From: Callorhinchus milii
Taxonomy: Eukaryota
Direction of reading: 5' to 3'
DNA: 64,000 bases
Assembly (NCBI RefSeq): GCF_018977255.1
Contig: NW_024704744.1
Location: 70,184,001 to 70,248,000, forward strand
Shown piece by piece: positions 1,745 through 47,159 of this stretch. The notes under the pieces are model-generated. The model made no database searches. It had not been told where the DNA came from and saw nothing but the letters and a program-made list of their open reading frames with translations. Position 1 is the stretch's first letter. Every line of letters begins with the position of its first letter. A program made the position numbers and the translations under genes.

Positions 1745-1842
1745 AGCAACAGAGAGAGCTGAGAAAACTCAGCAGGTCAGGCAGCATCTATGGAGAAAGG
1801 AAAGAGAGTCAACGTTTCGGGTCCACGACCCTTCGTCAGAAA
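1745..1842 (-). mobile_element. Penelope-like element pLTR fragment with hammerhead ribozyme motif
   Basis: Reverse strand reads CTGACGA-A-GGGTC-GTG-GACCC-GAAAC-GTT-GACT, then ...ATAGATGCTGCCTGACCTGCTGAG. The same block follows the PLE 3' region at 21389-21494. Confidence 0.8.
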
Positions 1843-20162: not shown

Positions 20163-20480
20163 GCTGAACAAAAAAAGTGTGGGGGGGGGCAAAAAACTTG
20201 CAACAAAACAGGCAGATCAGGAACAGAAAAGGTGCGTCTGGGACCAAGATGATTAGGTGAGCTGTTATGGCCTGAAATTGTTGAAATCAATATTGAGGCC
20301 AGAGGGCTGTAAGGTCCCTAGGAGATAAATGAGGTGCTGTTCCTCGAGCTTGCGCTGTGGCTCATTGGAATAGCGTAGGAGACCGTGGATGGAGAGGTCA
20401 GAGTGTGAGTGGGAGGGAGAGTTGAAATGGCAAGAAAATGAAAGCTCAGGGTTATGCTTGCAGACAGAATGGAGGTGGAA
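20163..20480 (-). mobile_element. Penelope-like element: GIY-YIG endonuclease C-terminus and start of 3' region
   Basis: HLHSVCK...CHFNSPSHSHSDLSIHGL...RKLEEQHLIYLLGTLQPSGLNIDFNNFRP* fits the PLE GIY-YIG end (HF...R...E..I..L.T..P.GLN). Confidence 0.88.
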
Positions 20481-20514
20481 GATCCCTTTAGAATGCTGAG
20501 AAGGGAGAGGGGGA

Positions 20515-20996
20515 AAACAACAACAACAACAACAACAACAAGATTCCATTTATAAAGCGCCTTTCACGTCAGGAGGACGTCCCAAGGCGCTGCACAGTTG
20601 GGTCATGACCCGAGCAGGGGGCAAATGGTCAGGGTGAGGGGAGGGGAGGGAGGAGGGGGGAGATGTTCAGGGTGAGGGGAGCGGAGGGAGCGAGGAGGGG
20701 GGAAATGGTCAGGGTGAGGGGAGGGATGGGAGGGAGCGAGAAGGGGGAAGAGAGTCGAGAGGGGAGCTGAAGGCTCGGTCAAAGAGAAAGGTTTTGAGAC
20801 CGGCCTTGAAGGAGGAGAGGAGGAAGCGGCGAAGGCACTGGGGGATAGAGTTCCAGAGCCGGGGCTGAGAGGCTGAAGGCCCGAGCACCGATGGTAGGGC
20901 GATTGGGGCGGGGGACGTGGAGCGGAACGGAGGGTACGGGCAGGTAGGTAGGGGGATAGTAGGTTGGAGAGGTAGGAGGGAGCAAGGCCGTGAATG
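20515..20996 (-). mobile_element. L2 LINE 3' end with G-rich duplicated 3' UTR
   Basis: LHVPRPNRPTIGARAFSLSAP motif, perfect tail hairpin at 20556-20591, and a (CAA)n end on +. Confidence 0.85.
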
Positions 20997-21072
20997 GTGT
21001 GTTTAGTGGTTGGGTCACACTGGAGATGCCGGAAATGGCGGAGAATTATTTTTTGGATGAACCTTTTACTTT

Positions 21073-21494
21073 GGTTTCAATACTGGCTTCAACAATTTCA
21101 AACCAAACAGCTCACCTTCCCCCTCACCCTGTTCTGTGACCCCTACCACATCATCTTGGTCCCAGACACACCTCTTCTCTCCCTGATCTGCCTGTTTTGT
21201 TGCAAGTTCTTTTCCCCCCTTTTGTTCTGCAGTATTCCCCTGCTTTGTTGCAATCACTTTGTTCTGCATCATTAACACCTCTTTAACCCATCATCCCCTG
21301 TCCTCTACCCCATTTTCTTTTTGTTTTCCTTGCCCTGCCTCCCCCCTCTCTGTTAGCCTTTAAAAGTCTCTCCCTCCCAACATGCCCCAGTTCAGACAAA
21401 GGGCCGTGGACCCAAAACGTTGACTCACTTTCCTTTCTCCATAGATGCTGCCTGACCTGCTGAGTGTTCCCAGCGACTTCTGTTTTTGTTTTCT
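21073..21494 (+). mobile_element. Penelope-like element 3' region / pLTR with decayed hammerhead
   Basis: Starts with codons GFNTGFNNFKP (compare GLNIDFNNFRP). 21073-21230 is the inverted counterpart of 20163-20300. Ends with AGTT-CAGACAA-AGGGCCGTGGACCC-AAAAC-GTT-GACT and the pLTR block. Confidence 0.8.
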
Positions 21495-29956: not shown

Positions 29957-30123
29957 AAACAAAACACAAAATACTGCAGATGCTGGAAATCTGAATCAAA
30001 AACAGAAGTCGCTGGGAACATTCAGTGCTGATGAAGAGTCGTGGACCCGAAACGTTGACTCACTTTCCTTTCTCCGTAGATGCTGCCTGACCTGCTGAGT
30101 GTTCCCAACGACTTCTGTTTTTG
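29957..30123. mobile_element. Fold-back PLE pLTR-derived insertion with hammerhead motif and 14-bp TSD
   Basis: Flanked by CTGCTGGTCTGTAT (29943-29956) and CTGCTGGACTGTAT (30124-30137). Inverted arms AAAAACAGAAGTCGCTGGGAACA / TGTTCCCAACGACTTCTGTTTTT. CTGATGA...GAAAC at 30028-30053. Confidence 0.85.
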
Positions 30124-44350: not shown

Positions 44351-45674
44351 GAATATGAAGGTTTAAGGATGAAAAATCAAAGCTAGTTGGTGGGTATGGC
44401 ATTCGAGGGGGAATGGGACCAGGGCTGATGGATAAGTGAATGCATATGGGCGATTATTGAAGAATGAAATGTGCAGCATTTCCATAAGCCGTTGTCCAAG
44501 TTCTCATAAGGAACCTGTTAAGAAAATTGCAGACTTCACCCCGTCCATTAGAAAAATCTGCTGGGAGCCTTCCTGAAGTTCCCGACTGACAGAATGTTAT
44601 AGCACAGAATTAGCATATTCTGACTATCAAGTCTGGATTGGGGTTTCCCTCCATATAAACCATCTAATCCTCCTCACTTCCCCATATCCTGAATCTCATA
44701 CTGAAGCATTGTTGAATCTAAATATTTCATTGTGCTGCAAACTATACCAAAAGTGAAGTCAGTTCTTTTCTGAATGCAGCATCCGTTACAAATGTCACCG
44801 TGCAAGTAAAATGTAATTTATCAATGTGTTAAAGGTGTAATTTACTGGGGCTGAGGTTTCAGGACTTTCTTCAGGACTCCTGCTAGCAGATTCCAGACTA
44901 ACAAACAGCCCACAGCCTGGAAGGAGTATGTATCACATAATAATTATAACAAAAATCAATAATAATCCTTGCATTTGATATAGCGTCTTTCACATCAGGA
45001 GAACATCTGAAAGTACTTCACAGGATTTTCTGTAAAATGTAGTGACTGTGTGTTTTGTAGGTGTACGTGATTTACCTCACACTTGCCGCAGATGTATTAA
45101 CATGGGCTGTGTTTCTGAGAGCCAGAGATGTTCAGCTTCATAAATGTTCTTACATAAAAACTAAAAAACTATTTTGTCTGTACATTAAGTTCATAACACT
45201 AAGGGCATCCCTTAAAGATATGTTAAATTCAGTTGTAGAACATGTCACAAAATAGCATTTATCTGAAAACAGTTTAGGTGAAATCCTTTTTAATCCATGA
45301 ATTTTTAACTCTGCCTATAACGTAATCTCAATTTGTTGGTCCTTATATTCTGGCACATCATTTAGTTCTGAGAGTAAGGCTTGGACAACAAGTTGTATGT
45401 CAATCCACTTGCTAAGCACTTAACAACCGGCAGAAATATGCTTTATTTGTTAATTAAATAAAAAACAAAGATTGTTCATGATGTCTCTACAGGAGGAATA
45501 AAACCATTCTTAATGGGAGCTAAAATATGAACGCAGGGCATTTTGCCAGGAATTCTCTTCAGATAGGCCCAGGAGCCAGTTTGTGAGAGACAAGAATTAA
45601 GTCGGCTTCAGGACTCTGCCACGAGACCATCAGCACCAACATCTGACTCTGTAAAAATGACTCAAAGGCACCTT

Positions 45675-46345
45675 ATAATAACAATCTTTGAATTAGATAG
45701 AAACAAAAAAAACAGAAGTCGCTGGGAACACTCAGCAGGTCAGGCAGCATCTATGGAGAAAGGAAAGTGAGTCAACGTTTTGGGTCCACAACCCTTCATC
45801 AGAACTAAGTCAGCTTCAGGACTCTGCTTCAGTTCTGATGAATGGTCGTGGACCCGAAACGTTGACTCACTTTCCTTCCTCCATAGATGCTGCCTGACCT
45901 GCTGAGTATTCCCAGCAACTTCTGTTTTTGTTTCAGATTCCAGCATCTGCAGTATTTTGCGTTGTGAATTAGATAGATTGCCTTATCACATCATGGAGAC
46001 ATCTCAAACCACTTCACAAGATTTTACTGTGAAGTGTAGTGACTGCATATTTTGTAGGTGAACATGCAGTCAATTTGCGTATAGAAATATCCTACATTGA
46101 GAGAGTGACCAATTTAATCTGGGGACTTGTTGGCCAGGACACCAGGAGAAAATCGCTTCTCTTTAACATCCATCTGAACAGGCAGACAGGACCACCACTT
46201 AATGTCTCATCTGAAGGACGGTACTTCCAAAAACGAGGCACACCCTCAACATTGCAGCCGGCCTGGACTGTGAGCTCCAAGTCTCGATGTGGGGCTTGAA
46301 CCCACAATCTTCTGACAGACAACTGCCAACTAGACCAGGCTGACA
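45675..46345 (-). mobile_element. Deu-domain SINE hosting the 45701-45964 insertion in its tail
   Basis: Head at 46290-46345 (reverse GTCAGCCTGGTCTAGTTGGCAG...GGGTTCAAGCCCCAC), Deu core at 46160-46225, and a tail continuous across the insertion. Confidence 0.75.
45701..45964. mobile_element. Palindromic PLE-derived element with a hammerhead motif on each strand and 13-bp TSD
   Basis: About 105-bp inverted arms (45701-45806 and 45831-45933) with a 24-bp spacer. TGAATTAGATAGA at 45689-45701 and 45965-45977. Confidence 0.9.
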
Positions 46346-47159
46346 CCTTGCAGATGTATACATAAATGCGATTCAGAAAGATACTCTAAACATTCATTCC
46401 AGGTAAATTATTCTTAAGTCCAATTGTACTTTTTCAGTTACCGTCATTTTATGCACCTTGTTGTTTTTATAAAAAAAAGTCTTCATTCTTGTTTCAAGTC
46501 TGATTTGCCCTATTGCCCTCTCTCTGCTACTGTGTATGGAAGCCTGGATCCAGGTGTCATTCAAGCATAAGGAAGCTGCCCTGGAGCTGGCTGGCCATTC
46601 TTTGTCTCATGGACCCTGTCTCTATGGCATGCACAAATCTGACAGTAATGTTTATAACCGGAACAAAAGCTACTATTTTCAATGTTGTCTCTTGCTTTAT
46701 TGCGCGGAGAAAGTGAACCCCAGCAAACTAACAGTTTAGCTCGAAACCTAATACTGCAGATTTATCATTGTGGTGAATCAACAATCTAAGGCCTCTTGTA
46801 GCCTGAGTCCTGCATTTAGGAATTCTTGGGTTCACTTGGCGTGAAACGTCTGTCATGCGCTGGTAAAGCAGCCCTGACATTAATTTATGTGCAGCCCATT
46901 CATTATCTTACATTAAATTGGCCATTCATTTCAGGGCTGTTTGGCGTCATTGTTGTGCACAAATTGGCTGCCACGTTCAACAAAATCTAACAAAGCCATA
47001 AAGTGAAAAAGTTATAGTTAAAATACAACAACAACAACATTACATTTATAGAGCACCTTTCCTGTTGGGAGGACGTCCCAAAGCGCTGAAATAAGGTAAA
47101 TAAAGCACAGGGTGGTGGGTGGGGGATGGGGGAAGGGACAGGATGGCACTGATCATGTG

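What the first reader, a model, noticed from the sequence alone, without database searches (positions are those of the whole stretch)
45689..45977. Non-coding fold-back element carrying a hammerhead-ribozyme motif on both strands, with a clean 13-bp TSD
Seen: two ~105-bp inverted arms and a 24-bp spacer. Each arm begins with AGTT-CTGATGA-A-stemII(GG.T.GTGGACCC)-(G/A)AAAC-GTT-GACT. The TGAATTAGATAGA duplication sits on both sides, and there is no ORF or poly(A). The insertion splits the tail of an older Deu-SINE. Known: Penelope-like elements carry minimal hammerheads in their pLTRs and often leave inverted pLTRs, and retrozymes are non-autonomous hammerhead-bearing retroelements. Inference: this may be a self-propagating short hairpin family mobilised by PLE RT rather than a one-off truncation. 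Each arm has one lesion (G12>A on the left, a stem II mismatch on the right).
Basis: partly seen in the sequence, partly recalled or inferred. Interest (0 to 1): 0.7.

Follow-up and report, generated by a model that had tools for sequence, protein, structure and literature searches.

The report
Locally assembled Penelope hairpin insertion
This DNA hairpin is two back-to-back scraps of the ribozyme-bearing end of a common Penelope-type jumping gene, and its middle matches a stretch of neighbouring DNA, so it was likely assembled on the spot during one insertion and is likely dead debris, not a self-copying ribozyme element.

Summary
In detail: a 263-bp insert, an exact 13-bp TSD and a damaged minimal hammerhead on each strand.

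Both arms are the last 105/134 nt of a Neptune-like Penelope element (PLE); a 28-mer from them occurs 2,934 times in the genome.

- No two of 34 spacers of 10 nt or more are identical.
- This spacer copies a 21-mer lying about 90 bp upstream; the exact pattern occurs only at those two places.
- Hinges vary: both arms reach the hammerhead start in only 5 of 43 unbiased pairs.

Two regularities remain. Arms pair tailed with tail-less in 39 of 43 pairs. Inner ends pile up 15-fold just before the hammerhead (31 of 99), not at its cut site.

Likely mechanism: both nicked strands prime cDNA at the two known PLE start sites, both run off the RNA 5' end, and end-joining adds templated filler. No RNA evidence was obtained. 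The scan reached this reading many times before, in this and other genomes; the flank-copied spacer is this locus's own contribution.

The parts
45689..45701 (.). left target-site duplication (13 bp)
   Evidence: family TSDs mostly 12-16 bp
45702..45806 (-). short, tail-less arm: PLE end positions +1 to about +103, hammerhead-sense on the minus strand
45770..45806 (-). minimal type I hammerhead motif, left copy, core G12>A (likely CpG decay)
   Evidence: features compared with PMC4209133
45807..45830 (+). 24-nt hinge filler; 45807-45827 matches flank 45599-45619 at 20 of 21 nt
   Evidence: (family D3)
45831..45964 (+). long, tailed arm: PLE end positions +1 to about +135
45831..45867 (+). minimal type I hammerhead motif, right copy, mismatch at the base of stem II; cleavage triplet GUU as in the family
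45934..45964 (+). 31-nt one-sided PLE tail (between the two inferred RT start sites)
   Evidence: bimodal 3' ends; tail described in PMC3846280, PMC8557442, PMC11167929
45965..45977 (.). right target-site duplication (13 bp)
45593..45619 (+). flank stretch that is the likely template of the filler (27 nt, 93% identical to 45801-45827, including a 5-of-6 match to the left arm's last six bases)
45661..46350 (-). older high-copy tRNA-type SINE-like repeat whose 3' end is split by the insertion (Deu-SINE label recalled, not tested)
   Evidence: ARAGORN found no tRNA

Best explanation
The hairpin consists of two head-to-head copies of the end of a Penelope-like retroelement with a Neptune-type cysteine linker, and was likely built at this site in one insertion when both strands of a staggered cut primed cDNA synthesis. 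Shown: in the parent unit the 137-nt arm lies both just before the ORF start (about +169) and again after the ORF and 3' UTR. Inferred: (1) the GIY-YIG endonuclease nicks both strands about 13 nt apart, giving the TSD; (2) each 3' end primes reverse transcription internally on PLE RNA, one at about +135 (tailed arm) and one at about +103 (tail-less arm), as a dimeric enzyme with two start sites would; (3) when the 5' copy of this segment is used, each cDNA runs off the RNA 5' end at -2 to +3, just before the hammerhead, like a strong-stop cDNA, so the template was uncleaved RNA; (4) the two free cDNA 3' ends are joined by synthesis-dependent end joining. At this locus the left end likely annealed by about 6 nt to the flank some 90 bp upstream, copied 21 nt, slipped once more and annealed to the right arm. 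The product is not itself copied as a unit, and its hammerheads are likely inactive: both are mutated, and they would pair with each other in any read-through RNA.
For: Parent element: arms continue upstream into GIY-YIG, cysteine-linker and RT sequence and downstream into an ATG and N-terminal frame in L192/L229, L195, L198, L169. Local assembly: the filler 21-mer pattern has 2 exact hits in 991 Mb, both at this locus, plus 1 one-mismatch hit elsewhere. 0 of 561 spacer pairs are identical; 10 of 34 spacers match their own arm ends better than shuffles at p<=0.05, about 1.7 expected. Many hinges are overlaps of 1-9 nt. Four flush-joined copies have different flanks and arm variants. Double priming: tailed plus tail-less in 39 of 43 unbiased pairs (binomial p 1.6e-8; 71 of 75 in all) and in 12 of 13 further loci chosen by the hinge alone, the 13th being rearranged. 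TSDs of 9 nt or more in 61 of 75 pairs versus 7 of 150 mismatched-flank controls. One template lineage per insertion: arms share non-CpG variants at 0.84% versus 0.17% when permuted (maximum 0.45% in 1000), and subfamily labels agree in 48 of 49 and 58 of 59 pairs. Fixed stop: 31 of 99 arms end at -2..+3, 15% per base versus 1.0% elsewhere, Fisher p 1.5e-24; 1 of 99 ends at +33..+35, the cut site. Genome-wide, 333 of 1,376 arms intact at +3..+24 keep the upstream hexamer (uncorrected for decay). No shared sequence lies 5' of the stop, so no spliced exon is attached. In vitro, the anole Poseidon protein nicks and extends both strands, starts at two internal sites that bound the tail, is predicted to be a dimer, and mainly uses uncleaved RNA (PMC11167929).
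Against: No RNA start was observed, so 'RNA 5' end' is inferred from DNA ends alone; an RT block at that position is not excluded. The commonest end is +2 (G), not the A of the initiator-like CCAGTTC. Flank-templated fillers are rare as a class (3 of 34 against about 1.7 by chance); only this locus and L012 are individually clear. 40 of 99 arms end at +6..+49, which needs extra trimming or stalling, and some of these calls are inflated by a diverged subfamily. Pfam hits for RT (E 0.0057) and GIY-YIG (E 0.0012) are below the curated cut-offs, and 3 of 5 pieces gave nothing. The biochemical precedent is a Poseidon element, not a Neptune one. The 99-arm sample comes from the first 31 Mb of one contig and needs an intact 28-mer.
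Confidence: 0.8

Rival explanations
1. Self-propagating hairpin or retrozyme: the whole fold-back is transcribed, processed by its hammerheads and reinserted as a unit by PLE RT.
For: 65 genome-wide hinge matches have both arms intact to +3; ends are regular; TSDs are clean; the hammerhead stems show a compensatory change between subfamilies.
Against: Spacers are not shared. This spacer comes from the local flank. Both arms are full in only 5 of 43 unbiased pairs. Each strand holds only one sense hammerhead, and it is predicted to be buried in a -181 kcal/mol hairpin. No ends map to the cut site. Animal retrozymes are head-to-tail tandems (bioRxiv 10.64898/2026.07.22.740005).
Confidence: 0.03
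2. Self-priming fold-back on an antisense template, the model offered for PLE head-to-head palindromes in PMC3846280: one cDNA or RNA snaps back at the hinge and copies itself.
For: Head-to-head geometry; 10 of 50 listed hinges are flush or nearly flush, giving near-perfect palindromes; arms share subfamily variants; 10 of 34 fillers copy arm ends.
Against: A snap-back does not explain a filler copied from DNA some 90 bp outside the TSD, hinges where the two arms stop at unrelated positions, or the near-strict tailed plus tail-less pairing that matches two RT start sites.
Confidence: 0.08
3. Double priming as in the best explanation, but the inner stop is an RT block or processing site at the 5' edge of the hammerhead (a bound protein, or a factor at the pyrimidine tract plus CAG), not the transcript start.
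For: The stop coincides with a CAG after a long pyrimidine tract, and in D. virilis Penelope an intron ends at the 5' end of hammerhead helix I (PMC4209133). G at +2 is kept in 66 of 81 stopping arms, A at +1 in only 34 of those 66.
Against: No common exon sequence precedes the stop (top 6-mer in 2 of 66). 53 of 134 arms read through the site. The anole enzyme's product length tracked the RNA 5' end (PMC11167929).
Confidence: 0.2

Closest known systems
EN+ Penelope-like insertions with an inverted 5'-truncated copy, a one-sided 30-40-bp tail and a TSD (PMC8557442 Fig. 2 legend and text; Adineta Pen2a_Av in PMC3846280)
   Same: Head-to-head inverted ends, a 31-nt tail on one arm only, a TSD, AT-rich targets, hammerhead in the pLTR.
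   Different: No ORF body between the arms; inner ends strongly focused at one point; TSDs mostly 12-16 bp against the 8-10 bp examples in PMC3846280; copy-specific filler, here copied from the flank.
Poseidon PLE of Anolis carolinensis, PAc (PMC11167929)
   Same: Two internal RT start sites bounding the tail, extension of both strands, uncleaved RNA as the main template: all fit the anatomy here.
   Different: The parent here has a cysteine-rich RT-EN linker (Neptune-like), and its ATG lies after the tail (about +169) rather than in hammerhead stem II. The PAc passages read do not describe joined head-to-head products.
Minimal hammerheads (min-HHR) of metazoan PLEs (PMC4209133)
   Same: Core, unpaired base between positions 9 and 10.1, 4-bp helix I, palindromic 15.2-16.2; that paper also notes pairs of min-HHRs 100-700 bp apart on opposite strands in Schistosoma.
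   Different: Helix II is 5 bp with a 3-nt loop; position 17 is U in 51 of 51 arms; both copies at this locus are damaged.
Non-LTR retrozymes of animals (bioRxiv 10.64898/2026.07.22.740005)
   Same: Non-coding, type I hammerhead, related to the PLE pLTR.
   Different: Retrozymes are head-to-tail tandem units with a hammerhead in each unit; this is a single head-to-head pair with no inherited unit.
[quoted passage not shown]
   Same: Flush joins, microhomologies and short templated insertions from nearby DNA, all seen among the hinges.
   Different: Here the joined ends are inferred to be two cDNAs; the polymerase (Pol theta or the PLE RT) is unknown.

Membership tests
EN+ Penelope-like element (parent) | Single ORF with RT followed by a C-terminal GIY-YIG endonuclease | tested here: met
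   Broken but colinear RT and GIY-YIG frames upstream of the arm in L155, L157, L161, L229; Pfam RVT_1 E 0.0057 and GIY-YIG E 0.0012, both below cut-off.
EN+ Penelope-like element (parent) | Partial-tandem pLTR: the same segment before and after the ORF | tested here: met
   L229 holds the arm at both ends; L195, L198, L169 show arm then ORF start.
EN+ Penelope-like element (parent) | Inverted copy, one-sided 30-40-bp tail and TSD | tested here: met
Neptune clade | Cysteine-rich linker between RT and EN | tested here: met
   C-x4-C-x2-C motif in L153, L157, L182; feature as stated in PMC3846280 and PMC8557442.
Neptune clade | RT phylogeny groups with Neptune rather than Nematis | not tested
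   No tree built; no reference PLE proteins were fetched.
min-HHR (type I) | Conserved core, extra base after position 9, helix II, short helix I, palindromic 15.2-16.2 | tested here: met
   Family consensus. Stem II pairs kept in 91-97% of 150 arms; subfamily B (10 arms) has G-C to A-U at the stem II base and U-G to U-A in helix I, one event each. Not met in either copy at this locus.
min-HHR (type I) | Self-cleavage as a dimer | not testable with these tools
   No assay. DNA ends show no pile-up at the cut site (1 of 99).
Non-LTR retrozyme | Head-to-tail tandem units, each with a complete hammerhead | tested here: not met
   Head-to-head single pair; both motifs damaged.
Non-LTR retrozyme | Circular RNA | not testable with these tools
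   Only assembled contigs of guessed RNA status were offered.
Self-propagating non-autonomous hairpin (MITE- or SINE-like) | Copies share ends and internal sequence under different TSDs | tested here: not met
Deu-SINE (flank) | Deu-domain sequence | not tested
   Resemblance recalled; no reference sequence fetched (one search gave a listing only). High copy number shown.

The most novel reading that the evidence does not exclude
The arms begin at the PLE transcription start and carry an internal promoter, as D. virilis Penelope does (PMC2377424). Then ORF-less arms, hairpins included, would be transcribed outward from the hinge as short RNAs that hold both RT start sites and serve as templates in trans. 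Each new hairpin would be rebuilt by double priming with a fresh filler: a SINE-like relay that spreads palindromes without ever inheriting its own middle.
Probability: 0.12. Interest if true: 0.65.

Novelty: new member of a known kind. Interest (0 to 1): 0.3.

Why it matters
As an object it is old PLE debris (about 6% non-CpG divergence from consensus). Its value is as a record of mechanism. The papers read call the origin of PLE inverted ends and one-sided tails unresolved (PMC8557442) or attribute it to self-priming (PMC3846280). The tailed plus tail-less rule, the fixed inner stop and a hinge copied from unique neighbouring DNA together give a testable model: two primings, run-off at the RNA start, then repair-style joining. 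Two targeted searches found no paper stating this (related searches), but most subscription papers were outside the library.

Tried and rejected
Rfam scan: no hammerhead family; the two miRNA hits reflect the hairpin and lie far below cut-off.

RNA evidence: no RNA holder listed; all 13 runs were contigs. Laying 4 of them could not show starts or strand; no empty-site joint was among those shown, and 86 were not shown. Depth was not used as a copy number.

Hammerhead cleavage as the source of inner ends: rejected, 1 of 99 at +33..+35. Two copies starting near +32 (L152, L169) look like ordinary junctions.

Spliced exon joined to +3: no common upstream sequence.

Gene conversion between arms: arms differ by 7.1% within loci against 8.5% between loci, so they are not homogenised.

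SINE targeting: 10 of 74 sites against 25 of 292 background (p 0.19); for the SINE's 3' part 10 of 74 against 17 of 292 (p 0.04), weak.

First Pfam scan of four short pieces found nothing relevant. PMC5785218 was not held, so nothing is taken from it. Reduced cleavage at GUU is recalled, not checked. No supplements were opened; those of PMC11167929 and PMC4209133 may bear on RNA ends and motif variants.

Rows dropped before counts: duplicate loci L001, L021, L029 (same flanks as L028), L031, L050, L058, L070; one of the 100 listed motif hits was not fetched; one pair was kept per locus except L012, which holds two insertions.

Full report
Observation. The insert at 45702-45964 (263 bp) lies between exact copies of TGAATTAGATAGA. 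It has a 105-nt left arm, a 24-nt spacer and a 134-nt right arm whose last 31 nt have no partner. Taking the A at 45831 as +1, each arm reads outward from the centre through a minimal hammerhead: helix I (+1-4 with +34-37), core, an extra A, a 5-bp stem II, then GAAAC and GUU. Rfam does not detect the motif. As one strand the insert folds into a single hairpin of -181.1 kcal/mol that buries the hammerhead. A contig from another run bridges the left junction.

Parent element. An arm-only search returned copies that continue 5' of +1. Walking upstream gave a 3' UTR, a GIY-YIG frame, a C-x4-C-x2-C linker and an RT frame (Pfam hits weak). Walking further reached copies in which the arm and tail run on into an ATG at about +169 and an N-terminal frame. 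L229 holds the arm at both ends of an internally deleted unit. The parent is therefore an endonuclease-bearing PLE with a Neptune-type linker, and +1..+137 lies at both ends of its unit. A 28-mer from the arm occurs 2,934 times, control 0.

Sample not chosen by inner end. I took 99 of the first 100 listed hits of that 28-mer. Outer ends are bimodal, near +99-108 and +131-138. Inner ends pile up at -2..+3: 31 of 99, 15% per base against 1.0% elsewhere (p 1.5e-24). Only 1 of 99 falls at the cut site. Forty end at +6..+49 and 24 reach -3 or beyond. 58 of 99 arms have an inverted piece of the element just 5' of them. Of 43 head-to-head pairs in this sample, 39 are tailed plus tail-less, 3 are both short and 1 both long. 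Both arms reach the hotspot in 5, one arm in 18 and neither in 20. Thirteen more loci chosen by the hinge alone gave 12 clean tailed plus tail-less pairs and one rearranged copy. TSDs of 9 nt or more flank 61 of 75 pairs against 7 of 150 controls, with a mode of 14-15 nt and 70% A+T. Genome-wide, 333 of 1,376 arms intact at +3..+24 keep the upstream hexamer; decay lowers this figure, so it agrees only roughly with the sample.

Spacers. Among 34 spacers of 10 nt or more, none of 561 pairs is identical. Ten match their own arm ends better than shuffles and three match their flanks; the flank class is not clearly above chance, but this locus and L012 are individually clear. A hinge pattern found 65 loci genome-wide. 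Of the 50 listed, 10 have joints of 3 nt or less (4 flush at +2/+2), and the 40 longer ones all differ by eye. The flush copies differ in flanks, subfamily and orientation. At this locus the spacer repeats 45599-45619 at 20 of 21 nt, preceded by a 5-of-6 match to the left arm's end. The 21-mer pattern has two exact hits in the genome, both here, and one single-mismatch hit elsewhere. The hinge could therefore hardly have been imported from a source copy.

Template. Arms of one locus share non-CpG variants five times more often than permuted pairs, and agree in subfamily in 48 of 49 and 58 of 59 cases. They still differ by 7.1%, so they are not homogenised. This fits one RNA or one source element per insertion, followed by independent decay. 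Arms that stop at the hotspot show G at +2 in 66 of 81 and no shared sequence beyond -2, which argues against an attached spliced exon. Only 12 of 51 arms keep core and stem II intact, and position 17 is U in all 51. A compensatory stem II change in subfamily B suggests the motif was under selection in the parent.

Mechanism. Shown: anatomy, parentage, end statistics and local origin of the filler sequence. From the literature: the anole Poseidon protein nicks and extends both strands, starts at two internal sites bounding the tail, is predicted to be a dimer and mainly uses uncleaved RNA (PMC11167929, parts 1-2 of 4 read); end joining can give flush, microhomology and templated joins (PMC2943611, abstract). 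Inferred: double priming at the two start sites, run-off at an RNA 5' end at -2..+3, and synthesis-dependent joining. The RNA start is the weakest step (about 0.65 on its own), because only contigs were available.

Comparison. Inverted ends and a one-sided tail are described for PLEs (PMC8557442, passages; PMC3846280, parts 2-3 of 5 and passages, which favours self-priming). Minimal hammerheads, and pairs of them on opposite strands, are described in PMC4209133 (parts 1-2 of 4). Animal retrozymes are tandem units (bioRxiv 10.64898/2026.07.22.740005, part 1 of 5 and passages). D. virilis Penelope has an internal promoter (PMC2377424, passages and Discussion). PMC6765202 was seen in passages. 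Searches for a strong-stop or head-to-head account returned 1 and 2 papers; by title and abstract start none states this model, apart from PMC3846280's own self-priming one.

Earlier scan notes. My reading was recorded before I looked (no sequence match). Word and place look-ups then showed the same reading many times in other genomes and in this one. These are unchecked notes and are not counted as support.

Verdict. A real, old, ORF-less PLE insertion of a known kind, assembled in place; not a retrozyme or self-propagating hairpin. Interest 0.3, for the unusually direct sign of local assembly and the testable model.

Noticed in passing
window 29957-30123: A second head-to-head insertion of the same family: tailed arm cut at about +72 joined by a 3-nt overlap to a tail-less arm starting at -1, with a 14-bp TSD (1 mismatch).
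   Followed up: partly
window 21388-21491 and about 20255-21059: A tail-less copy that continues upstream into the PLE 3' UTR; further PLE pieces lie upstream.
   Followed up: partly
window 1758-1841: A solo tail-less arm on the minus strand with the subfamily C variant, stopping at about +3, beside a SINE piece.
   Followed up: no
L007, L023, L118 (also L088, L114): Independent insertions share essentially the same 15-16-bp TSD, which looks like one position in the abundant SINE: a possible target hotspot. This window's insertion lies roughly 50 nt nearer the SINE 3' end.
   Followed up: partly
L176 (about 1227-1363, turned to the ORF strand): An inverted tailed arm stopping at +3 directly abuts a 5'-truncated RT body: the same inner stop appears in a classical long PLE insertion.
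   Followed up: no
L012 hinge: A 14-nt spacer matches its own flank exactly, a second case of flank-copied filler.
   Followed up: partly
L192/L229, L195, L198: just 5' of the ATG at about +169: A pyrimidine tract and TAG precede the start codon, a possible splice acceptor for a 5' UTR intron.
   Followed up: no
L204, L205, L206; L028 and L029: Near-identical multi-kilobase duplicates containing PLE pieces: segmental or assembly duplications, not transpositions.
   Followed up: no
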